Shown piece after piece: positions 9,562 to 64,000 of a stretch of DNA of 64,000 nucleotides. Position numbers and translations under genes: made by a program. The notes beneath the pieces were generated by a model. It was not told the DNA's origin. It ran no database searches and was given only the letters and a program-made list of their open reading frames with translations. Source of the stretch: an uncultured Bdellovibrionales bacterium (GTDB lineage Bacteria > Patescibacteriota > Minisyncoccia > Moranbacterales > UBA1568); the NCBI GenBank assembly GCA_964612055.1, contig CAZTBI010000001.1:71957-135956 (forward strand). The letters are read 5' to 3'. How positions within the stretch are numbered: position 1 is the first letter of the stretch; every line of letters starts with the position of its first letter.

Positions 9562-9695
9562 AGCAAGCAACCTTTCAAAGTACCGCTTGCTTGCCCTGGC
9601 GTGGCAAGCTGCTCTACGCTTCCACCCGCACTCTTTTTCCTTCGGAAAAAACCATGCCCGTTCGGGTTCCAGGGTTACTTTGGAAGATTCTTGCT
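9562..9695 (+). repeat. structured intergenic repeat R1, copy 1 (candidate ncRNA)
   Basis: About 135 nt. It is about 90% identical outside the variable P3 hairpin to 49893..50037. It forms three hairpins inside a closing helix, with compensatory differences between copies. Confidence 0.6.
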
Positions 9696-14559: not shown

Positions 14560-14666
14560 AAACCCCTCGATCCCTGCCCGCCTCTGGAGGGTTTGCTCAA
14601 TTATGTTTATAATAGAGCTATACAGAGTAGGGTAGTAATTTTTGGGTTTCTAGCAGCAAAACAAAA

Positions 14667-49016: not shown

Positions 49017-49772
49017 ATGATTTTTCACCTTACTGTTTTTGTCTGGAGCTTAGCCTTTCTTGCTGGCCTTGAGGCGGTAGCACTCAATCCCATCTTTGCC
49101 TCTTGGAGTTGGTATCTTCTTTCTATTGGCGTGCTGGTCGCGATATCGCTCGGTGCCATTCGTCGTTTGACGGAGAATTCTTCAGATGCCTTTATTCCGA
49201 TTCTGCTTTCTCTCGCTTCGCCGACGCTCCTCTCGCTCGTCGATCATCCTGGTGAGCGGCAAGTGTTTGTTTTCCTAAGTGCGGTGATGTATTATTTCGC
49301 GCTCCTCGGGAACTACCGTCTCCACCATGCTCCTGCTGACAAAACGGGTGAGGCCTTTCTGAACTCAGCTGCGATGGCGGCCATGTTCTTCTTTTATGCC
49401 GGTCTGTACGGATTTTTTCTCAACTTCTCCTTTCCACTTTGGGGATTGATGCTTCTGTACTTTATTGGTACGGCACTGACCAGTTACGAGACGTTTATTA
49501 CCGTCGACAAGAAAGAACGCAAAAGAGTGATTCTCTACAGTGCGCTTCTCGGCTTTATCATGGGCGAGATGGTGCTCGTGATGAGTCTTTGGCCATTTGG
49601 GTACCTGACAACAGGGGCTCTCGGGACGATTCTTTTTTTCATCGCGTGGGATATTTCCTTTGATGCTTTTCGAGAGACGTTGTCATTGAAAAAGGCGATG
49701 ATTCGCATCCTATTTCTCATGATACTCGTCCTCCTTCTCCTTATCAGTTCTCCGTGGCGGATATTGGTGTAG
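49017..49772 (+). CDS. hypothetical polytopic membrane protein
   Basis: 251 aa with 6-7 predicted TM helices. No family recognised. Confidence 0.5.
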   Translation: MIFHLTVFVWSLAFLAGLEAVALNPIFASWSWYLLSIGVLVAISLGAIRRLTENSSDAFIPILLSLASPTLLSLVDHPGERQVFVFLSAVMYYFALLGNYRLHHAPADKTGEAFLNSAAMAAMFFFYAGLYGFFLNFSFPLWGLMLLYFIGTALTSYETFITVDKKERKRVILYSALLGFIMGEMVLVMSLWPFGYLTTGALGTILFFIAWDISFDAFRETLSLKKAMIRILFLMILVLLLLISSPWRILV

Positions 49773-49892
49773 AGCGTATTCTTGTTGTTCGTGACGGTTT
49801 TGCGATAGAGTTTCTTGGGAGTGAAAAATTACATACTTTTGGGGAGTTGTTTCCCAAAAATACCTTCCCTTTTCTTTTTAAGGAATTCCTAA

Positions 49893-50037
49893 ACCAAGCA
49901 ACCTCCCAAAGTACCGCTTGCTTGCCCCGGCGTGGCAAGCTGCTCTACGCTTCCACCCGCACTCTTTTTCTTCTGCCAGCTGGCAGAAGAAAAAACCATG
50001 CCCGTGCGGGCTCCAGAGTTACTTTGGAAGATTCTTG
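49893..50037 (+). repeat. structured intergenic repeat R1, copy 2
   Basis: Near-identical to 9562..9695 except that the P3 hairpin is extended (tttttcttctgcc-agc-tggcagaagaaaaa versus tttttcc-TTCG-ggaaaaa), with stem-preserving changes. Confidence 0.6.
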
Positions 50038-50091
50038 TTTAGGGATTCTCGGTATGCGCAGCGTTTTCGAAAATATTTTCATTTTCTTCAG

Positions 50092-50203
50092 CCGTGTCCT
50101 GTCGGTCACATTTGTCATGAGTGTACCGGTAACAGTCGAGCGTAATGAGTGGCTTCCGTCAGATAGCTCCCTGTTCGGCGAAGCGATTGAGAAATGTTCG
50201 ATA
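50092..50203 (+). repeat. intergenic repeat R2, copy 1
   Basis: About 112 nt. About 85% identical to the reverse complement of 59381..59497, with a shared core gtcggtNacatttgtNatgagtgNaccggtaacagtcgagcgtaa...agctccctgttcggc...gaaatgttcga. Confidence 0.55.
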
Positions 50204-50314
50204 GGACTAAAGGGGGAGAAAAGGGAACATATTTTTGAAAACGTACATACCATTTTTTGTTCAGAGGCATTTCTTGCCGAAAATGGTGAAATATGATAGA
50301 AGTAAAGCACTGTT

Positions 50315-51499
50315 ATGGCATCATTTTTCATCAAAAAAGCCCTTCTTTTCAGTTTTTTAGCCATCATCGTGCTCATCTTGGGCGGGGTGGGGGGTGTTTT
50401 TTTTGAGCGTTCACTGGTGCCGCGTTTGGCTGCTACAGAATACTTTGGGAACTGGGATATCTTCAAGAAAGCCGCAGAGCACGTGACGGTCATCAACAAG
50501 ACTGAGCAGATCGTGATCCGTGAAGATGATACCGTTGAAAGAATCGTTTCTCAGCCAGCAACGGCAGTGGTGAATATCGTGGCTTTGCCTGGGGTAAAGG
50601 GTGCGAAGGGGAGTACGGCCGCTTTGGGCGCAGCCGCAGAGACGGTCGTGACGACTACGGGTGTGCTGCTGACGAATGACGGTCTGGTAGCGACCTACAG
50701 CGAGCTTCCTTTTGATACTGAAAAGACAGAGTATTCCATCTTGCTTTACGATGGCTCGATCCACCAAGCGACGTTTGCTGGTCGAGACAAGTTGACGAAT
50801 CTTTCATTTTTCCGAGTGAGCGATGCTTCCAATACGCCGGCCATTGCTTTTGCAAATTCCGATGACGCACGCGTAGGAAGAAAGCTGATTGCGATCGGGA
50901 ATACATTTGCGGAATATCAGAATCGTTTGGCCGTAGGTATCCTTTCCAATATCAATCGCATCTTCAATCTTTCTGGAAAAACGGTTGCTTCCTCAGAAAA
51001 GTGGGAAGGAGTCTTTGAGATGGATCTGGCTAGACCAGAATCGTTCGTCGGTGGTCCGGTGATCGGTTTCAATGGGGAGATGGTTGGTATCGTAGGAACA
51101 CTCGCCATCAACAATACACTCCAGTCGTTTGTCATTCCATCGAATGTGGTGCGCGATGCTCTTAATCGTCTGATCGCTGGGACATTGGAGAGGCGGCCGA
51201 TTCTTGGTGCGTACTATCTCTCGATTACGAAAGCTTTGGCACTGGGTCAAGGTCTCGCTCGTGATCGTGGGGCGCTTGTCTATTCGCGCTCTGGTTCCAC
51301 TGGTCTTGCCCTGATCGCTGATTCACCGGCCATGAAGGCTGGGATTCTGGCAGGGGATATTATTATCTCGGTAAACGGTACCGAAGTGAATCTCGACAAT
51401 CCGCTCCCAGAGATACTGTCACGCTTCAATGTTGGCGACACGCTTTCTCTGGTCATTCTCCGCAACAATGAGGAGCGGACCATCGAAGTGAAACTGTAA
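50315..51499 (+). CDS. HtrA-like pseudo-protease with PDZ domain (catalytic His and Ser substituted)
   Basis: Trypsin-fold/PDZ architecture aligns with the neighbouring HtrA. The His motif reads TNDGLV and the Ser motif reads ESFVGGPV (no GNSGGP). Confidence 0.7.
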   Translation: MASFFIKKALLFSFLAIIVLILGGVGGVFFERSLVPRLAATEYFGNWDIFKKAAEHVTVINKTEQIVIREDDTVERIVSQPATAVVNIVALPGVKGAKGSTAALGAAAETVVTTTGVLLTNDGLVATYSELPFDTEKTEYSILLYDGSIHQATFAGRDKLTNLSFFRVSDASNTPAIAFANSDDARVGRKLIAIGNTFAEYQNRLAVGILSNINRIFNLSGKTVASSEKWEGVFEMDLARPESFVGGPVIGFNGEMVGIVGTLAINNTLQSFVIPSNVVRDALNRLIAGTLERRPILGAYYLSITKALALGQGLARDRGALVYSRSGSTGLALIADSPAMKAGILAGDIIISVNGTEVNLDNPLPEILSRFNVGDTLSLVILRNNEERTIEVKL

Positions 51500-51705: not shown

Positions 51706-53034
51706 ATGGCACCACTGCCAGTTGATAAGATCCCGACTCATACCGGGTTCCATTTCGATGAGGTCCTGGGGATTTTCCAGATGTGGAATTATCCGCAGCA
51801 TTCCGAACCGCTTTTCCCTGGCATCAGCAACGCCAGTGTGGTTTTCTGGAATGCCGGCCGCAAGACGCCGGATGGCTACTACGCTGACGAAGGCTGGATC
51901 CGGAAGAATCGGATGTGTCCTGTCGGTTGTGGCGGCAGCATCTTTGACGAGCACCCCAAAGAAGAAGAGTCTGAGGAAGAGGAGCGCCTTCGTCCACAGA
52001 CCTGCGCGGCCCTGTTGGTTGCTCAGAAGCTCGGCATCGATCAGTTGCCACGGCTCCAGTCCTGCCTCCGATTCGCGGTGGAAGTCGATAACAATGCGAC
52101 GGATCATCCGCACAGCATTGCTGCGACCATCAAGAAGCTCCACAACAACCGTGAGACGACGCCGGGTCATGTCAGGAAGTGGGTGAAGGATCCGGAACAG
52201 GCAAAGAGGATCAAAGAACTCCTCCAGCGTCGGATCTCGATCGGTGATGTGTTCGAATGGGTGCAGCAAGGGATCTACGCCAAGATGTGCGAACAACCCC
52301 AGACCGACGACTTCACGATCGAAAAGATCGGTGAACTCATGCAGCTGCAAGGCATGCATGAACCGTTTTCGGCTGAGGACTGGTTGCGCATCGGCACTGA
52401 TGCGATGGAGCTCGATCAGTTGCTTTTTGACACGGTGACGGCTGAGCAGTACCAGGCGTTCAAGACCATTGTTCCTTTCCGAGGAATCGGCAGAGGGAGC
52501 AAGGTCATGGACATGAAGATCGCCGTAGTTCCGTCGGATGATGTGCGCATCGATCGTTACGCCCGATCAAAGTTGGGCGATCAAGTAGCGGTCACCGTCA
52601 TCAAAAGGTCGACTGGCAACATCGTCGTCATGGTGAACAAGTATTACGGTCTCCGTACCTATGACATCGCTCGGGCGATCAAGACGGAAGAATGTCTCAT
52701 GAGAGGCATCGAACTTCCGCGCTGGGATCAGATGAGGCGGCAGCTTCAGCACAGTGTGTGGTACTACCATGCGCCGGGCGGCAACCTCTTTAATGGGGCC
52801 AAGACCTCGCCGGATACGCCGCCGACCGTAATCCCGCTGCCGAGGATTGTCCAGTTGGTGAAGATGGCAGTTTCGTCTGAGGCGTTCGAATCGTCTCGGA
52901 GCGAATGCTGCCTGCAGGGGATCTGCAGTTCGACTCCACGGCAACCCTGTTCGTGGTACAAGTACGGCCTGTCCCGTTGTCAGACAATCCGCTTTGAAGC
53001 ACGACGTGACGCGGAGGCCGAGCTGAATAAGTAG
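51706..53034 (+). CDS. hypothetical protein (442 aa) encoded in a GC-rich island; possible horizontally acquired gene
   Basis: It is the only ORF spanning the whole island. It has a strong SD (AAGGAG 7 nt upstream) and its own promoter and terminator. GC is visibly higher than flanking DNA, with many spurious all-frame ORFs. No family recognised. Confidence 0.55.
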   Translation: MAPLPVDKIPTHTGFHFDEVLGIFQMWNYPQHSEPLFPGISNASVVFWNAGRKTPDGYYADEGWIRKNRMCPVGCGGSIFDEHPKEEESEEEERLRPQTCAALLVAQKLGIDQLPRLQSCLRFAVEVDNNATDHPHSIAATIKKLHNNRETTPGHVRKWVKDPEQAKRIKELLQRRISIGDVFEWVQQGIYAKMCEQPQTDDFTIEKIGELMQLQGMHEPFSAEDWLRIGTDAMELDQLLFDTVTAEQYQAFKTIVPFRGIGRGSKVMDMKIAVVPSDDVRIDRYARSKLGDQVAVTVIKRSTGNIVVMVNKYYGLRTYDIARAIKTEECLMRGIELPRWDQMRRQLQHSVWYYHAPGGNLFNGAKTSPDTPPTVIPLPRIVQLVKMAVSSEAFESSRSECCLQGICSSTPRQPCSWYKYGLSRCQTIRFEARRDAEAELNK

Positions 53035-57867: not shown

Positions 57868-59325
57868 ATGGCCAAAGATAACGTCGTTCTCAGATTTGAT
57901 AAAGTGTCCTTCGAATACGGGCACAAAAAGCCTATTTTAGATGAGGTGAGTTTTAGCATGCGCAGTGGCTCCAAGATCACGCTCATGGGACAAAACGGCG
58001 CTGGTAAAAGCTCGCTTTTTAAGCTCATCACTGGTGAAGAAAAACCACAGAGCGGGCGTATTTCTCTTGATAGGGATGCTGTGGTAGCTATCGGTCGCCA
58101 GACGATTCCGCGCGATCAGCTCGATATGACAGTGGAAGATTTTTTCCAACAGTTTTTTCATGAGAAGAAGTGGAACCTTCCCGCTTTGATCAAGGATGTT
58201 TTGGAAGTGGTCAATCTGCCGGTGCCGCCGCTTGAGAAAAAGATCCGTCAATTTTCTGGTGGTCAGCAGGCACGCTTGCTTCTTGCCTCAGCACTTATTC
58301 AGGATCCAGACATCCTGCTCCTTGATGAACCGACCAACAACCTTGATTACGCTGGTATCTCACACCTGACGCAGTTTCTGATCGATTACAAGAAGACGGT
58401 TATCGTCATTTCTCACGATGCGGAGTTTTTGAATGCTTTTACCGAGGGCGTGTTTTACCTTGATGTTTTCACTCATCAAATTGAGCAGTACACGGGTAAC
58501 TACTATGACGTGGTAGAGGAGATCGCTAGACGTATTGCCAAGGCGCAGAGCGAAAACGTTCGTTTGGAGCGTACCATACAGGAAAAGAAAGATCAGGCGA
58601 ACGTCTTTGCCAACAAAGGAGGAAAGCTCCGTGCTGTCGCGAAGCGGATGCGTACATTGGCTGAAGAGCTTGAAGAGAACAAAGTCGACGTCCGTCGTGA
58701 AGATAAAACACTTTCTCCTTTTGAAATTTCTACCAATGATGTCGTGGGACCGATTGTGAATATCAAAACGGTTTCGGTTTTGGGTGAGTTTGGTCCCAAT
58801 ATCAAACGAGTTGACATGATACTGAAGAAAAATACTCACCTCGTTGTCTCTGGTCCAAACGGTATTGGCAAGAGCACGTTTCTCGAAGAATTGGCGACGG
58901 GCAATACCGAACGCGCTGAAATTACACCGGGCGTGAAAGTCGGTTACTACCGCCAGGATTTCTCGACGCTTGATTTTGATAAAACAGTAGCAGAGACGCT
59001 CCTTGCTTCACTTCCAGAGAAGAATACTGAATTGGCCTACAAAGTGGCAACGAAATTTCTGGTGCCGTCTGAGCTCCTCCAGAACAAAGTCGCCAGTCTT
59101 TCAGAGGGACAGAAGGGACTCCTTATGTTTGCCTGTCTCTACGCCGAAAAGCCAGACCTTCTCATTCTTGATGAACCGACAAACCATATCAACTTTCGTC
59201 ATTTACCAGTGATTGCTGAGGCGCTCGACAATTACAAAGGCGCTCTGATACTAGTTTCCCACGTTCCAGACTTTGTAGCGCAAATCCGCATCGACGAAGT
59301 GTTGGATTTGGAATCTTTGAGCTAG
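57868..59325 (+). CDS. ABC-F family ATPase (two tandem ABC domains, no TMD)
   Basis: Two Walker A motifs (GQNGAGKSSLF, GPNGIGKSTFL), two LSGGQ-like signatures (FSGGQQARL, LSEGQKGLL) and two Walker B motifs (LLLDEPTN, LILDEPTN). Confidence 0.88.
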   Translation: MAKDNVVLRFDKVSFEYGHKKPILDEVSFSMRSGSKITLMGQNGAGKSSLFKLITGEEKPQSGRISLDRDAVVAIGRQTIPRDQLDMTVEDFFQQFFHEKKWNLPALIKDVLEVVNLPVPPLEKKIRQFSGGQQARLLLASALIQDPDILLLDEPTNNLDYAGISHLTQFLIDYKKTVIVISHDAEFLNAFTEGVFYLDVFTHQIEQYTGNYYDVVEEIARRIAKAQSENVRLERTIQEKKDQANVFANKGGKLRAVAKRMRTLAEELEENKVDVRREDKTLSPFEISTNDVVGPIVNIKTVSVLGEFGPNIKRVDMILKKNTHLVVSGPNGIGKSTFLEELATGNTERAEITPGVKVGYYRQDFSTLDFDKTVAETLLASLPEKNTELAYKVATKFLVPSELLQNKVASLSEGQKGLLMFACLYAEKPDLLILDEPTNHINFRHLPVIAEALDNYKGALILVSHVPDFVAQIRIDEVLDLESLS

Positions 59326-59380
59326 GTGTTGTTAGGCCTGACTTCGGAGAAGATTTAATTTTTCTGACCACTTTCGTTTC

Positions 59381-59497
59381 GTCGAACATTTCTGACTCGT
59401 TCTGCCGAACAGGGAGCTAGCCGCTCGAAACCATCGCGTTACGCTCGACTGTTACCGGTTCACTCATCACAAATGTTACCGACGGCACACGGGATGC
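59381..59497 (-). repeat. intergenic repeat R2, copy 2 (inverted)
   Basis: Its reverse complement aligns along its length with 50092..50203. It lies between convergent genes. Confidence 0.55.
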
Positions 59498-59567
59498 AGA
59501 AAAATCAAACCTTTCCTTCGCTATACTCGGGTATTTCGGCCGTATTAGATTTTCTATGCGGCCTTGA

Positions 59568-60014
59568 TTATTTTTCCTTTTCGAAAAATATGTTCCAGAA
59601 AAGGTAGCCGGCGAGAAAGAAGCCGGCGATGAAGACAGGAATGAGGAGTGGGGGAAATTTGATGAGTGAGACTGAGAGGATGCCAACTGCCCAGAAGATA
59701 CCGAGCCACAGAAGGGGGCTCTTTTTTGTGATGTTCCAGGAAAATGAAAGATTGAGGTAGCGCCCGAGGAGGGCGGTGGCGAAAGTGGAGAGCGTGAGGA
59801 TGAGCAAGAACTTGGCGAGGCTGAAACGTGTGGTTACGAACGTTGGGAGGAGTGTTTCAATGGTGAAGAAGCCGGCAAAATAGAGGTAGCCGATGATAAG
59901 AGCTTCAACAGCGAGGGCATAGACGATATGGAGCGCTCCAGATGTGCGCCACTTTTCGAGAGAAGGGGTGAGTTGCTTGAATAAGAAATCCATAAGAGTG
60001 TTTTTAGGCGTCAC
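59568..60014 (-). CDS. hypothetical small polytopic membrane protein
   Basis: 148 aa with 4 TM helices. Overlaps the upstream gene by 11 nt. Confidence 0.5.
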   Translation of the reverse strand: MTPKNTLMDFLFKQLTPSLEKWRTSGALHIVYALAVEALIIGYLYFAGFFTIETLLPTFVTTRFSLAKFLLILTLSTFATALLGRYLNLSFSWNITKKSPLLWLGIFWAVGILSVSLIKFPPLLIPVFIAGFFLAGYLFWNIFFEKEK

Positions 60015-61155
60015 CGAAGCGAGCGAGTAAACGTTGCTTGATTTTTGAGAGAAGCGTCATTAAGTTCTCTTGATTCTTGGCGGTTTCAAAGGAAACAGAG
60101 AGGGCACTTATTTCAACGCTAGTTTTTTGATTGGTGATTTGGAGCTCGAAATCATTACCGAAGCCCGGAGTGAGGGTAGTGATAGGGGTGGTACAGGCAA
60201 GTTTGGTACTGAAAATATTGGGCAAAAGAGAACAATGAGCAGATTGTGTACTTGCCTGTGTCGAGACGATTATTGGATGCTTGTCTGTAACGAGGAAGTC
60301 TCGATAGGTGCCAGGAAGGAGCGGTCGCTTCGTTCCTTGGTCAATCAGGTAGTAACTCTCATTATCTTGGTCGAAAAGAACTGTACCGTCAGGATGAGCG
60401 GCGCCGAGGAGAAAAATCCGGCCACGTTTGTATACCCCCAGTTCTTCTTCGCTCGCTTCGATGACGTCCTGGAAGTCATAGCCCAGTGCCAGGAAAATTT
60501 CAGCACTTCCTACTGGACGGGCTTCGGTTTCACTGGTCACTACAAAGACGCCCATGGCATTGGCGAGAAGCGACCCGATACGGAAACCAAGCCACTCTTC
60601 TGACACAGGGTAACGTTCGAGGAGTGTATCATCAGATGCTTCGGCGTATTCTTCGGGAAAGCGGGAGAGATAGGCTGCTTCGCTTACGAAGGGGAAGAGG
60701 GTGTCGCTGCGAAGAGCGTAATAAGTGCCGTCAATGACGTACAGATTTTCTTTTGGGAAGTCAGTGACTGGGGCGCCAGTCGGGTAGAAGAAGCTCTGAT
60801 AGGAGCGGCGTAGGGAAAAATCGAGTGTTTCCGGTACGGCAGAATTCTTTTCCAGGGTGACGCTTGCTTTGACGAGTGAGAAGTCGCCAACGACGGCAGT
60901 GTCTGCGACCAGGGTTCCGCCCTGTTCAATTTTGCCGTTGCTGCGGTCAGTATTATCTGGAGAGCGTGGCAGGAGGATGGTGTTTTTACTGGCGCTGGCT
61001 GAGCGAAAATCAAAACCTTGCTCGATGGTTGGGAAAAAGACATTGAGAGCGAGTAGAATCGTCAGGATGATGATTCCAAGATAGAGGAGGGCGCGGAGCT
61101 TGTGATAGCGACTCTGCCAGTGTTCCGGGATGACGATCGGTGAGGGGAAAAACAT
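60004..61155 (-). CDS. hypothetical membrane-anchored protein
   Basis: 383 aa with an N-terminal TM anchor and a large extracytoplasmic domain. No family recognised. Confidence 0.5.
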   Translation of the reverse strand: MFFPSPIVIPEHWQSRYHKLRALLYLGIIILTILLALNVFFPTIEQGFDFRSASASKNTILLPRSPDNTDRSNGKIEQGGTLVADTAVVGDFSLVKASVTLEKNSAVPETLDFSLRRSYQSFFYPTGAPVTDFPKENLYVIDGTYYALRSDTLFPFVSEAAYLSRFPEEYAEASDDTLLERYPVSEEWLGFRIGSLLANAMGVFVVTSETEARPVGSAEIFLALGYDFQDVIEASEEELGVYKRGRIFLLGAAHPDGTVLFDQDNESYYLIDQGTKRPLLPGTYRDFLVTDKHPIIVSTQASTQSAHCSLLPNIFSTKLACTTPITTLTPGFGNDFELQITNQKTSVEISALSVSFETAKNQENLMTLLSKIKQRLLARFGDA

Positions 61156-61164
61156 AGAGCGGTG

Positions 61165-62952
61165 TTAGTAAATTTGAAAGAGGAAGTTCTTAGTTTCAGG
61201 GCTGATTTTTTCCGGGAGACGGAAAGGTACTTCTTCGGAGAGGGTGATATTTTCGAGCTGCTCCAAAGAAAAGGTGAAGGATTTTTTGAATACCAGGCGA
61301 TCACCAAAGACTGCGGCATAACGACCCTGACTTTCTTCTGGTGTCAGGAGGTAGATGTGATCAAAATGTGTCGTGTCGAGGGCAGAAAGGTCGTAAGGGT
61401 TGAAGAAGTAAACGGTATTCTTTCCGAAGAGGAACTGGCCGGGACCAGAAAGCATGAAGAAGCCGTTTCCGGTAGCGTTCTGATCAACTAGGATGAGATC
61501 TTTGTCCGAAAATTCCTGGCTGAAAAGAGCGATCTGATCTTTCAGTCCGCGTCCTTCGGCGAAGGTAAGCTGCGTGCTCCAGGCAGGGTACTGGAGAAGA
61601 ATGAGACCAAGAAAAATAATCGTCACGAGAAGAAGTCTTTTCCCCCTTGGTTGTTCGAAGAGGGAAGTTTTTTCTTTGGCGAAAAGGAAAGCTATGCCTA
61701 CGACAGCTGAAAAGAGGAGGGTCGGAAAAAGTGAGAAGAGATAACGCCTGAGCATCCAAGGATGATCAGGGGTAATATTGGGGTGGAAAAGATAGAGAAA
61801 GGTTGGGAGAGCGATGAAAGTGGGAATCAAGAGGAGCCAGCGTTTTTTCTTGAGAAAAAGAAGGATGCCGAAGAATCCGAGGAGGGCGAGAGCCAGTAAT
61901 CCGTAGAGAAAAAAGATGGAACCGAGGCCAAGTGATGCGCCTTGTTCGATGACGCTTTCATTTGAGCCTGAAAAGCCACGAAGAAATTTGAAGAGCGCTT
62001 TCCCGATCATCTTGTAGTAAGGGAGGTTGATGAAGAAGTCGCGCAAGAAAAAGAACGTAAAAAGAAGTCCTGGAATGACGATGCTTTTCCAAGGATAGGT
62101 ACGGAAGATGGCCCGAGTATGAGGATGAAGAGCGATGAGTAAAAGAGCGAGACCAAGGAAAGCAAACCCCTCAATTCGAGTAAAGGCAAAAAGGGCTCCA
62201 GAGAGTAGGATGCCAGCATAGAAAAGAAATTTTCCCTCACGAAAGAAGAGGACGAGATTGTAGACGAGAAAAATAAAGAGGAAGACAGCCAGGTTTTCGG
62301 TCAGAGTAATTTTGGCGAACCAGCTTGGGAGGAAAGAGGTCATGGCAAGGAGGAGTCCAGCTCCCGCATAGTAGGGGTGAACAAAGAGGCGCAAGAGTTG
62401 ATAGAAAAAGAAAAGCGCGAGGAAGAGGAGTATGGCATTGCCGATGGCGAATCCATGTATCCCAAAGAGTGAGACGAAGCTTCCAAGCCAGGCGGTATAA
62501 CCGAGTGGAAATTGGGTCAGAAGATAACCCTCTTTGGTATACGCGAAGCCAGGGAAGTTGAGGGCGGTCCCAGCGCCATAGATCTGGAAGAAGCTGTCGC
62601 TTGCCGGGGTAGAAAAGGCGAGTTCGGTGTTTTGAGCTAAACGATAGGCGGCCTCGGCGATAGAGCCCTGGTCGCGGCCAGAGAACAAGGTTGGTTCGGA
62701 AACGAATCCAACAAAGACAGCGTAGAGGAGAGTGGTAATAAAAACAACACGGAGATCGAGTGCCGCGAAACGAATGAGTTTGAAGGAGATGAGAAAAACG
62801 AGCGTGGCAAAAAGAACGAATCCAGTCACGAGGAGTGGAAAGAGAAAAAGGCTACCAAGTGTCAGACAGAAAGCAAACCACCCGAAGACGACAAAAGAAA
62901 GTCCGAAGAGCGCGATGAGACTGTCGGTTTTTTCGAGGGAAAGAAGTTTCAT
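61165..62952 (-). CDS. GT-C fold glycosyltransferase (ArnT/PMT, GT39/GT83-like) polytopic membrane protein
   Basis: About 12 TM helices with a periplasmic C-terminal domain. The architecture is typical of undecaprenyl/dolichyl-phosphate sugar transferases. The start is set at ATG MKLLSLEK (the ORF extends to 63078). Confidence 0.55.
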   Translation of the reverse strand: MKLLSLEKTDSLIALFGLSFVVFGWFAFCLTLGSLFLFPLLVTGFVLFATLVFLISFKLIRFAALDLRVVFITTLLYAVFVGFVSEPTLFSGRDQGSIAEAAYRLAQNTELAFSTPASDSFFQIYGAGTALNFPGFAYTKEGYLLTQFPLGYTAWLGSFVSLFGIHGFAIGNAILLFLALFFFYQLLRLFVHPYYAGAGLLLAMTSFLPSWFAKITLTENLAVFLFIFLVYNLVLFFREGKFLFYAGILLSGALFAFTRIEGFAFLGLALLLIALHPHTRAIFRTYPWKSIVIPGLLFTFFFLRDFFINLPYYKMIGKALFKFLRGFSGSNESVIEQGASLGLGSIFFLYGLLALALLGFFGILLFLKKKRWLLLIPTFIALPTFLYLFHPNITPDHPWMLRRYLFSLFPTLLFSAVVGIAFLFAKEKTSLFEQPRGKRLLLVTIIFLGLILLQYPAWSTQLTFAEGRGLKDQIALFSQEFSDKDLILVDQNATGNGFFMLSGPGQFLFGKNTVYFFNPYDLSALDTTHFDHIYLLTPEESQGRYAAVFGDRLVFKKSFTFSLEQLENITLSEEVPFRLPEKISPETKNFLFQIY

Positions 62953-63076
62953 ATCGCTTTTAGTATACCTCAAAAGGGGCATGTCTTTCAATTCTTTTCC
63001 TGTTTGCCAATGGCCGGTTGAGAGGTTACAATACAGAGAAAAGAATAGGCAGGTCTGTTTTTGTCTCGACCCACTC

Positions 63077-64000
63077 ATGAATCGATATTTTTTTCTTTGG
63101 TACTACACAAAAGGACTTTTTTCTTCCGGGACACTTTCCTGGAATCTGGTTCGTTTTGTCGTCTGGAAGTTTCATATCTTTGGCCTTCTCGCTACGCTTA
63201 TTTCTCCGTGGAAGAGAGACGTGACATTCAAGGATTGGCGTGGGCTGCATCCGGTGAAGTCGCTCCAACTCATCTTTGAAAATCTCATTTCTCGTTTTCT
63301 CGGGATGATGCTCCGTCTCGTGGTGATCGGAGCGGGTATTGTCGTCTTGGTACTGGTTTTGATTTCGAGTCTGGCAGCGTTTCTTTTGTATACGCTTGCG
63401 CCGCTGTCTCTTGCTTTTGGAATAGTGTTTCTTTTGATGGCGCCGACCTTTGGGATAGTGCTCCTTGCGGCTGGTATTGTTGGGGTGATGGCGGCCTTTG
63501 TCGGATACCTGTTTCGTGAGCAGGATGAGCCAGAGACGACAGACATGGCGAAGCTTTGTCACCGACCTTGGTTTGAGAGGCTCTTAGGGAGATTAGGCCT
63601 TGAAAAGAAAGAACTTGGCAGGGAGCTTTTGACCGATACCGAAGCTTTTGTCGATTATCTTACTTCTTTGGGTCTCAATCGGGAGATATTCGAACAAGCG
63701 GTCTTGATAGAACGGACTGCCGCCTTGGCGCGCGCCAGGAAGGGACAGTTTCTTTCTTGGGAGAACCTTCACAAGAGCACGCCTATCGGCAAAGGTTGGC
63801 AGTATGCCTATACGCCTCATCTCGATCGCTACTCTCTCGATCTCTCGGCCTTTGATCCGACGGAGTACCGGAATCTTGTTTTGGTCGGAAGAGAAGACGA
63901 GTTGCGAGTGGCAACCCTAGTATTGGAACGGCCAGCGCAGAACAGCGTCTTTTTGGTCGGTGACCCTGGTATTGGCAAGAAGACGTTGGTGCATCATTTG
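63077..64000 (+). CDS. membrane-anchored Clp/Hsp100-like AAA+ ATPase (3' truncated by window edge)
   Basis: Open frame with no stop to the window end. N-terminal 4-TM domain. ...NLVLVGREDELRVATLVLERPAQNSVFLVGDPGIGKKTLVHHL parallels ClpA/B/C D1 (VIGRDEEI...NPVLIGEPGVGKTAI). Confidence 0.6.
   Translation, partial: MNRYFFLWYYTKGLFSSGTLSWNLVRFVVWKFHIFGLLATLISPWKRDVTFKDWRGLHPVKSLQLIFENLISRFLGMMLRLVVIGAGIVVLVLVLISSLAAFLLYTLAPLSLAFGIVFLLMAPTFGIVLLAAGIVGVMAAFVGYLFREQDEPETTDMAKLCHRPWFERLLGRLGLEKKELGRELLTDTEAFVDYLTSLGLNREIFEQAVLIERTAALARARKGQFLSWENLHKSTPIGKGWQYAYTPHLDRYSLDLSAFDPTEYRNLVLVGREDELRVATLVLERPAQNSVFLVGDPGIGKKTLVHHL

What the first reader, a model, noticed from the sequence alone, without database searches (positions are those of the whole stretch)
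50092..50203. Repeat family R2 copy 1 (partner at 59381..59497, inverted)
A roughly 112-nt segment is about 85% identical to the reverse complement of 59381..59497.

The identity is concentrated in blocks: gtcggtNacatttgtNatgagtgNaccggtaacagtcgagcgtaa, agctccctgttcggc and gaaatgttcga. These blocks are separated by a roughly 20-nt variable segment.

This block structure is consistent with a structured RNA or protein-binding repeat rather than a random duplication.
Basis: seen in the sequence. Interest (0 to 1): 0.5.

Follow-up and report, generated by a model that had tools for sequence, protein, structure and literature searches.

The report
New hairpin RNA family in Moranbacteria
The two inverted repeats are copies of a previously undescribed, roughly 185-base RNA hairpin found in a few tiny symbiotic (CPR/Moranbacteria) bacteria; its shape is clearly preserved by evolution, but its job is still unknown.

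Summary
The repeat is real: 94 of 112 bases match, far above shuffled controls. It is the core of a larger element, about 185 nt: copy 1 at 50058-50247 (+), copy 2 at 59343-59526 (-). Each copy folds into one long imperfect hairpin.

Four full homologues were found in other Patescibacteria contigs (L001, L002, L003, L020), plus a decayed fragment (L022). Across the six full sequences, 27 of 57 pairs show compensatory changes. Pairing is 91.6%, against 43-51% in shifted registers. G.U outnumbers A.C 34 to 7, and the named strand folds 9-27 kcal/mol better. This points to a strand-specific structured RNA.

The most conserved part lies below the tip. A bulged-helix module, CGGU(A/C)AC paired with GUUCG, occurs twice, 24 nt apart. 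The tip and the base of the hairpin vary.

There is no Rfam match, no conserved reading frame, no conserved termini, and no match in the phage or plasmid collections.

Close relatives have empty sites at both loci, and one lineage carries decayed copies. The element is therefore dispensable. It often sits beside a second structured repeat (49895-50037).

Best reading: a new accessory hairpin RNA, probably a protein-binding scaffold. The main rival is an ERIC/BOX-like intergenic hairpin repeat. Function was not shown.

The parts
50058..50247 (+). R2 copy 1 (type A): the full hairpin element.
   Evidence: Covariance-model hit at 50058-50240, 175.7 bits. MFE hairpin of -74 kcal/mol. Included in alignment A4.
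59343..59526 (-). R2 copy 2 (type B): the full hairpin element.
   Evidence: Covariance-model hit at 59343-59526, 175.9 bits. MFE hairpin of -64 to -68 kcal/mol.
50103..50109 (+). Outer bulged-helix module, 5' half (CGGUCAC). It pairs with GUUCG at 50196-50200.
   Evidence: Invariant C-G, G-C and G.U pairs plus a 2-nt bulge in all six sequences.
50127..50133 (+). Inner bulged-helix module, 5' half (CGGUAAC). It lies 24 nt after the outer module and pairs with GUUCG at 50173-50177.
   Evidence: The spacing is 24 nt on the 5' strand and 23-24 nt on the 3' strand in five of six sequences. L020 carries a 19-nt insert.
50146..50163 (+).
   Evidence: All three pairs of helix 5 change on both sides between sequences.
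50173..50200 (+). 3' strand carrying both GUUCG halves and the GA-containing internal loop (GAAGCGAUUGA).
59451..59481 (-). Copy 2: both CGGUAAC module halves (59481-59475 and 59457-59451) and the UGAUGAGU tandem-GA strand.
59383..59410 (-). Copy 2: both GUUCG halves (59410-59406 and 59387-59383) and the CAGAACGAGUCA strand.
49895..50037 (.). Associated second repeat (R1-type element), 20 nt upstream of R2 copy 1. Its functional strand is unclear.
   Evidence: 94-96% identical to 9564-9693. Also lies next to type A R2 in L020 and L002. 13 of 50 predicted pairs show compensatory changes. It folds better on the minus strand.

Best explanation
R2 is a family of strand-specific, roughly 180-200 nt hairpin RNAs in Moranbacteria-like Patescibacteria (CPR). 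It is absent from Rfam.

Shown:
- Each copy is one long imperfect hairpin with a variable base stem of about 20 bp, an internal loop, a highly conserved region below the tip, and a hypervariable tip.
- The pairing is maintained by compensatory substitutions.
- The wobble pairs fit one strand only: + for copy 1 and - for copy 2.
- The conserved region contains the same bulged-helix module twice. In each module CGG, a 2-nt bulge and AC on the 5' strand face GUUCG on the 3' strand, with an invariant G.U pair. The two modules are 24 nt apart. Between them lies a tandem G.A loop (UGAUGAGU facing ACGAGUCA).

Inferred:
- The RNA is made as its own small transcript, or as the end of a short non-coding transcript together with the neighbouring R1-type element.
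- It works in trans as a scaffold for a protein that reads the two identical modules. A spacing of 24 nt is about two turns of an A-form helix, so both modules would face the same side, which would suit a dimer.
- It is an accessory gene, not a housekeeping gene. It comes in two old paralogous types, A and B. It sits in flexible intergenic islets just after gene ends, and it is lost or decays easily.
For: - Hairpin and covariation: the RNAalifold consensus has 57 pairs, 27 with compensatory changes in only six sequences. Pairing is 91.6%, against 43-51% when partners are slid by 1-3 columns. The covariation score is 0.409 against 0.09-0.15, and 0 of 500 shuffles reach any observed measure.
- Strand: G.U/U.G 34 against A.C/C.A 7. 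The named strand is 9-27 kcal/mol more stable in all six sequences. The covariance model scores 176 bits on the named strand and 24 bits on the opposite one.
- Sequence constraint: the core is 94% identical between copy 2 and L001 and about 70% between copy 1 and L002, while the base stems are only 45-70% identical yet still paired. The ATPase gene next to L002's copy is only 45% identical to the window's homologue.
- The module occurs twice at fixed spacing.
- Not tied to one gene: five different genomic contexts. In L003 the same-strand neighbours are absent, because the upstream gene is divergent and the downstream gene convergent. In L001 a terminator-like hairpin precedes the element.
- Not coding: the ORF from the conserved AUG runs 10 to more than 43 codons, and its frame shifts with the length of the tip.
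- No Rfam family at any threshold.
- Dispensable: both sites are empty in relatives whose HtrA protein is 64-95% identical, and L021 and L022 carry decayed halves.
Against: - No transcription data are available.
- No conserved sigma-70-like promoter was found upstream of the six copies.
- In the window and in L020 only about 20 nt separate R2 from the R1-type element, leaving no room for a promoter of its own.
- No candidate partner protein was found. The flanking genes (DUF5656, HtrA-like protease, ABC-F ATPase, unknown membrane proteins) are also present in relatives that lack R2.
- The patchy distribution, the decay, and the location at terminator-type sites also fit a selfish or merely tolerated hairpin repeat.
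- G.T wobble pairs are also tolerated in folded single-stranded DNA, so strand asymmetry alone does not prove an RNA.
- Only six full sequences support the model.
Confidence: 0.5

Rival explanations
1. R2 is an ERIC/BOX/Correia-like intergenic hairpin repeat. It would be a dispersed, non-autonomous palindromic element that lands in gene-end or terminator regions. It would be transcribed only as part of its neighbours' mRNAs. At most it would act locally, as a terminator, insulator, RNase III site or mRNA stabiliser.
For: - Both window copies and most homologues lie just after the 3' end of a same-strand gene. Copy 2 and L002 lie between convergent genes.
- In relatives the copy 2 site holds an ordinary bidirectional terminator instead. 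No other terminator-like site is found in the window's copy 2 spacer.
- Presence varies even between relatives whose HtrA is 95-98% identical. The elements decay and rearrange.
- R2 co-locates with a second repeat family and carries a nested 19-nt insert in either orientation.
- Contigs L021 and L022 break inside R2, and L017 breaks inside the R1-type element, as assemblies do at repeats.
- Type A copies end in a run of 5-7 U.
Against: - The termini are the least conserved part and the interior the most, which is the reverse of what a transposase-mobilised element would show.
- No target-site duplication is evident at either locus.
- Copy number is low: two in 64 kb, and one exact-core hit in each of only two of 185,579 representative genomes.
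- Internal loops and bulges are sequence-invariant across genomes whose proteins are about 45% identical. This exceeds what a mere terminator hairpin needs.
- Type B and L003 lack a U tract.
Confidence: 0.3
2. R2 works as folded single-stranded DNA. It would be a strand-specific hairpin signal (for replication, recombination or transfer) belonging to a mobile element, in the way of plasmid single-strand origins, attC sites or IS200/IS605 ends.
For: - The hairpin is strand-specific, with conserved bulges and G.T-compatible wobbles.
- The distribution is patchy.
- A TraG/VirD4-like ATPase lies next to the L002 copy and about 4 kb from copy 1.
Against: - No Rep, relaxase, integrase or transposase gene lies next to either window copy, and the neighbours are housekeeping genes.
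- There are no matches in 50,697 phage or 72,556 plasmid records, nor in IMG/VR with a degenerate two-block pattern.
- The TraG-like gene is also present in relatives without R2.
Confidence: 0.08
3. R2 is the 6S-type RNA of these bacteria. It would be a hairpin of about 185 nt that binds RNA polymerase, with two paralogues as in Bacillus 6S-1 and 6S-2.
For: - The size and the overall rod shape fit.
- Two diverged paralogues occur in one genome.
- There is an internal loop between the base stem and the upper stem.
Against: - The Rfam 6S models give no hit even at E = 10 on four different copies.
- There is no large central bubble. The largest loop is about 6 by 7 nt, up to 11 by 10 in L003.
- Close relatives lack it at both loci, which is unexpected for a housekeeping regulator.
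Confidence: 0.05
4. R2 is a cis-acting 5' leader or riboswitch, or it encodes a small peptide starting at the conserved AUG.
For: - A conserved AUG (GAUGAGU) opens a short ORF in every copy.
- In L001 a gene starts about 25 nt after the hairpin, and in the window the HtrA-like gene follows copy 1.
Against: - The downstream genes differ or are absent. Copy 2, L002 and L003 face a convergent gene.
- ORF length runs from 10 to more than 43 codons, and the frame is broken by tip-length changes.
- The substitutions follow base pairing, not codon positions.
- A conserved promoter-like block for the HtrA-like gene lies downstream of R2, at 50271-50303.
Confidence: 0.04

Closest known systems
ERIC (IRU), pneumococcal BOX and Neisseria Correia elements: dispersed intergenic imperfect palindromes that fold as RNA (from my own knowledge of the literature, not checked here)
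   Same: - An imperfect palindrome of 100-200 nt in intergenic regions near gene ends.
- Presence varies at orthologous sites.
- Internal insertions occur.
- The hairpin is kept by compensatory change.
- It associates with other repeat modules.
   Different: - No sequence similarity.
- R2 has a very low copy number.
- The interior is conserved rather than the ends.
- R2 spans genomes whose proteins are only about 45% identical.
- R2 has a twice-repeated bulged-helix module.
6S RNA (Rfam RF00013) and its Bacillus paralogues 6S-1 and 6S-2
   Same: - A rod-like RNA of about 185 nt.
- Two paralogues in one genome.
- Not tied to one neighbouring gene.
   Different: - No covariance-model match.
- No large central bubble.
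- Dispensable among close relatives.
Small bacterial SRP RNA (4.5S)
   Same: A long hairpin whose conserved protein-binding internal loops sit near the apex on a variable stalk.
   Different: - No Rfam SRP hit.
- The tip is not a conserved GNRA loop.
- Two copies, absent from close relatives.
- The conserved motifs are unrelated.
Single-strand origins of rolling-circle plasmids, and integron attC sites
   Same: A long, orientation-specific imperfect hairpin with conserved unpaired bases.
   Different: - No linked Rep or integrase gene.
- A chromosomal housekeeping context.
- No plasmid or phage matches.
TIGR-Tas stem-loop guide arrays of CPR bacteria (PMC12045711)
   Same: - Found in CPR bacteria.
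- Palindromic non-coding units with a motif that is read twice by a symmetric protein dimer.
   Different: - TIGR units are 36-nt guides in tandem arrays next to a Nop-domain Tas gene.
- R2 is a single 185-nt hairpin with no array, no spacers and no Tas gene nearby.

Membership tests
Any Rfam 15 family | Match to a curated covariance model | tested here: not met
   Gathering threshold on the whole window gave only tRNA-Gln. E up to 10 on both window copies, L003 and L020 gave only chance hits to miRNA or snoRNA hairpins.
Structured RNA (general) | Base pairs conserved through compensatory substitutions, beyond controls | tested here: met
   27 of 57 pairs show changes on both sides. Pairing is 91.6% against 43-51% in slid registers. 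0 of 500 shuffles reach the observed values.
Structured RNA (general) | Strand specificity (G.U favoured over A.C) | tested here: met
   G.U 34 against A.C 7. The named strand is more stable by 9-27 kcal/mol. 176 bits against 24 bits on the opposite strand. Single-stranded DNA is not excluded by this test.
Structured RNA (general) | Evidence of transcription with defined ends | not testable with these tools
   No expression data. The promoter and terminator scans were uninformative.
MITE (transposase-mobilised inverted-repeat element) | Conserved terminal inverted repeats | tested here: not met
   The base of the hairpin is the most variable part (36-71% identity) while the interior is 62-94% identical. 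The ends pair but differ in sequence between copies.
MITE (transposase-mobilised inverted-repeat element) | Target-site duplication at filled sites compared with empty sites | tested here: inconclusive
   At the copy 1 locus, TTCTTG lies at both edges of the 490-nt insert (49779 and 50271), inside a weak 33-nt similarity. L020 has none. At the copy 2 locus the whole spacer is replaced.
MITE (transposase-mobilised inverted-repeat element) | Many copies per genome | tested here: inconclusive
   Two copies in 64 kb. One exact 19-mer hit in each of two representative genomes. The full source genome could not be scanned.
6S RNA | Large central bubble flanked by long stems, and an Rfam model match | tested here: not met
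   The largest internal loop is about 6 by 7 nt (11 by 10 in L003). There is no RF00013 hit.
6S RNA | Binds the RNA polymerase holoenzyme and templates product RNAs | not testable with these tools
   This needs an experiment.
Intrinsic terminator | Short G+C-rich stem followed directly by a U tract | tested here: not met
   No terminator-like site was called at either copy. Type A copies have a U5-7 run after a stem of about 90 bp. Type B and L003 have none.
Riboswitch or cis-regulatory leader | Constant position upstream of one gene family | tested here: not met
   Five different contexts, three of them with no same-strand downstream gene.
Small protein gene | Reading frame and length conserved, with substitutions biased to synonymous sites | tested here: not met
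   The ORFs run 10, 15, 16, 16, 36 and more than 43 codons. The frame depends on tip length, and the changes follow pairing.
TIGR-Tas array | Tandem array of guide units next to a Nop-domain Tas gene | tested here: not met
   A single hairpin, with no array. The neighbours are a protease, DUF5656 and an ABC-F ATPase. Family description taken from PMC12045711.

The most novel reading that the evidence does not exclude
R2, alone or together with the neighbouring R1-type element, is the RNA component of a system not yet recognised in CPR bacteria. Two forms are possible. It could be a trans-acting scaffold RNA whose two identical bulged-helix modules recruit a dimeric protein, playing a Y-RNA, 6S or SRP-like role that is optional for the cell. 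Or it could be a new kind of non-coding element that spreads between related genomes as an RNA-structured islet without any gene of its own.
Probability: 0.25. Interest if true: 0.7.

Novelty: new member of a known kind. Interest (0 to 1): 0.5.

Why it matters
CPR/Patescibacteria have tiny genomes with very short intergenic spacers, and almost nothing is known about their regulatory RNAs. R2 is a 185-nt non-coding hairpin kept in shape by selection across genomes whose proteins are only about 45% identical, yet it is freely lost between near relatives. That makes it either an optional regulatory or scaffold RNA or a new type of selfish non-coding element. Either would be a useful entry point into RNA biology and genome flux in these uncultured symbionts. 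The covariance model built here gives a direct way to map the family.

Tried and rejected
- **Rfam.** Searched at the gathering threshold and at E up to 10 on four copies. Nothing was found.
- **Exact-core scans.** The genome scan gave L001 and L002. The metagenome scan gave L003 plus two chance hits in coding DNA, L004 and L005. The IMG/VR 16-mer scan gave 11 hits, all from unrelated sequence and none resembling R2. A degenerate two-block pattern in IMG/VR gave none.
- **Spurious-ORF search.** I searched the protein database with the spurious 180-aa ORF that spans both repeats, hoping to find miscalled ORFs over homologous elements. It returned only the identical protein, on a 485,659-nt NCBI contig. 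Looking that protein up failed, so the source record was not named.
- **Phage and plasmid BLAST.** No match.
- **Small ORF from the conserved AUG.** Rejected, because frame and length are not conserved.
- **Box C/D or K-turn reading of GUGAUGA.** Rejected by inspection. The partner strand has UCAG, not CUGA, and the G.A pairs sit in a symmetric 2 by 2 loop without a 3-nt bulge.
- **Hammerhead-like CUGAUGA.** Rejected. The GAAA partner lies in a covarying stem (AAAUGU becomes GAGAGG in L002), and Rfam gave no hit.
- **TIGR-Tas.** Rejected.
- **Promoter search.** No shared sigma-70-like site.
- **Resemblance to the 16S rRNA 5' region.** GUCGAGCG and GGUAACAG resemble that region from memory, but I treated this as coincidence. 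It could not be tested because the window holds no rRNA.
- **Synteny walk.** Eight further look-ups of HtrA orthologues gave mostly empty sites, so the family sample stayed at six full sequences.

Full report
**1. The observation**

Window 50092-50203 and the reverse complement of 59381-59497 share 94 identical bases. That is 84% of copy 1, or 79% of the alignment columns. The alignment score is 64, against -12.8 +/- 4.9 for 1000 shuffles. The repeat finder lists this pair as the two longest inverted repeats of the window.

Both copies are intergenic.
- Copy 1 lies between a DUF5656 membrane-protein gene (49017-49772, +) and an HtrA-like protease gene (50315-51499, +).
- Copy 2 lies between the convergent 3' ends of an ABC-F ATPase gene (57868-59325, +) and a 148-aa membrane-protein gene (59568-60014, -).

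**2. The real extent and shape**

A pyrimidine-rich stretch upstream pairs with a purine-rich stretch downstream, for example UUCAUUUUCUUC with GGAGAAAAGGGAA. MFE values run from -64 to -88 kcal/mol.

The full elements are about 50058-50247 (+) and 59343-59526 (-).

**3. Relatives**

- An exact 19-mer scan of 185,579 representative genomes gave two true homologues. L002 comes from a Moraniibacteriota MAG. L001 comes from a contig binned as Bdellovibrionales.
- The metagenome scan gave one more, L003. The other hits there and in IMG/VR are chance matches inside unrelated sequence.
- Walking along orthologues of the neighbouring HtrA-like gene added L020, a diverged copy at the same site as copy 1. 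It also added the decayed copies in L021 and L022 at the site of copy 2.
- The orthologues carry Moranbacteria or Moraniibacteriota labels, which places the window in that CPR lineage.

**4. Structure test**

Alignment A4 holds six full sequences. RNAalifold predicts 57 pairs on it, 27 with compensatory double changes.

| Measure | Observed | Partners slid 1-3 columns |
|---|---|---|
| Cells paired | 91.6% | 43-51% |
| Pairs with a change on both sides | 27 | 6-13 |
| Covariation score | 0.409 | 0.09-0.15 |

No shuffle out of 500 reached any observed measure.

Examples of compensatory change:
- ACAUUU/AAAUGU becomes CCUCUC/GAGAGG in L002.
- The first pair of CCGG/UCGG is C-G, U-A or A-U in different sequences.
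- All three tip pairs change between sequences.

G.U pairs outnumber A.C mismatches 34 to 7. The named strand is more stable by 9-27 kcal/mol in all six sequences. A covariance model scores each window copy at 176 bits on the named strand and 24 bits on the other. It finds no third copy in the window.

The structure is therefore real and strand-specific: + for copy 1 and - for copy 2.

**5. Anatomy**

Conservation is highest below the tip. In helix 4, 10 of 13 pairs never vary. The bulges UA, UC and C and the GUAA/NNUA loop are fixed. Conservation is lowest at the base stem and the tip.

One module occurs twice. CGG, a 2-nt bulge and AC on the 5' strand face GUUCG on the 3' strand, with an invariant G.U pair. 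The two occurrences are exactly 24 nt apart on the 5' strand and 23-24 nt apart on the 3' strand. The exception is L020, which has a 19-nt insert. Between them lies a tandem G.A loop.

At about 11 bp per turn of A-form helix, the two modules would face the same side. This is an inference.

**6. What it is not**

- No Rfam family matches, at any threshold, on four copies.
- It is not a small gene. The ORF from the conserved AUG is 10 to more than 43 codons long, and its frame changes with tip length.
- It is not a leader for one gene. The contexts differ, and copy 2, L002 and L003 face a convergent gene.
- It is not a classical terminator.
- It is not a terminal-inverted-repeat transposon derivative, because the ends are the least conserved part.
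- No transposase, integrase or Rep gene lies nearby.
- There are no phage or plasmid matches.
- It is not a TIGR array.

**7. Evolutionary behaviour**

The family has at least two old types.
- Type A comprises copy 1, L020 and L002.
- Type B comprises copy 2, L001 and the L022 remnant.
- L003 is separate.

The cores are far better conserved than the bases: 94% against 68% between copy 2 and L001. L002's genome is distant, because its TraG-like ATPase is only 45% identical to the window's homologue. This argues for long-term constraint rather than recent spread.

Yet presence is patchy. On an HtrA tree, the copy 1 site is filled only in the window and in L020.
- L036, whose HtrA is 98% identical, has a different insert there. 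It holds the neighbouring repeat in inverted orientation and only an 18-nt piece of the R2 base.
- L018, L031, L032, L019, L026, L034, L023 and L024 have spacers of about 10-60 nt at that site.

At the copy 2 site:
- L019 and L034 have an ordinary bidirectional terminator.
- L018 and L031 have a small gene.
- L021 and L022, which encode the same HtrA protein as L020, hold complementary decayed halves of a type B copy.

Either several losses or repeated site-specific gains are required. I could not decide between these.

**8. Company**

All three type A copies are preceded by a second repeat (49895-50037 in the window; a further copy lies at 9564-9693). The gap is about 20 nt in the window and L020, and about 135 nt in L002. 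A fragment of this repeat also abuts the type B remnant in L021.

It shows compensatory changes of its own. However, it folds better on the opposite strand.

**9. Interpretation**

The shown facts establish a new, strand-specific, selectively maintained hairpin element. They fit a structured RNA best.

Its invariant interior, repeated module, varied contexts and low copy number favour a trans-acting, protein-binding accessory RNA. I put this at about 0.5.

Its gene-end location, patchiness, decay, nesting and replacement of an ordinary terminator keep an ERIC/BOX-like hairpin repeat with only local effects as a serious rival, at about 0.3.

A folded-DNA signal, a 6S-type RNA, and a leader or peptide are minor alternatives. 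Function, transcription and partner are untested.

**10. Verdict**

- The family appears undescribed: it has no Rfam entry and my literature searches found nothing.
- It belongs to known general kinds, either orphan structured ncRNAs or intergenic hairpin repeats.
- Interest is moderate.

Noticed in passing
window 9564-9693 and 49895-50037; L002 4151-4300 (-); L020 8510-8666; L036 430-566 (-); L021 10175-10231: A second repeat family (R1-type, about 135-165 nt). It has a long closing stem and three inner hairpins. The two window copies are 94-96% identical. 13 of 50 predicted pairs show compensatory changes. No Rfam hit. It lies directly upstream of every type A R2 copy. It also occurs alone (between dnaE and miaA) and inverted (L036). 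It folds better on the strand opposite to R2.
   Followed up: partly
window 14573-14591; L020 8727-8745 (-); L022 10150-10168 (-): A 19-nt G+C-rich piece, CCTGCCCGCCTCTGGAGGG. In the window it forms the loop and 3' arm of the hairpin just after an L32-like gene's stop codon. Nearly the same 19-mer is inserted inside R2 copies of the L020 lineage, in opposite orientations and at different positions.
   Followed up: partly
window 49779-49811 and 50271-50303: The roughly 490-nt insert that carries both repeats is bounded by TTCTTG on each side. The left edge weakly resembles the conserved promoter-like block upstream of the HtrA-like gene (TTGCCR...GATAGAAGT). This may be a diverged duplication of that block, judged by eye only.
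   Followed up: no
L021 10119-10227 compared with L022 10119-10292: Two contigs encode the identical HtrA protein but differ completely in the spacer after the ABC-F gene. One keeps the 5' half of a type B R2. The other keeps its 3' tail plus a fragment of the R1-type element. This is strain-level turnover of non-coding DNA.
   Followed up: yes
L001 (CAZPXK010000037.1): The contig carrying the best type B homologue belongs to a MAG labelled Bdellovibrionales, while every other carrier is Moranbacteria-like. This suggests a mis-binned contig or a transfer. I did not check which.
   Followed up: no
window 51706-53034, 60004-61155, 61165-63078: Three sizeable conserved genes next to the repeats have no Pfam domain at all. 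Orthologues are present in relatives.
   Followed up: no
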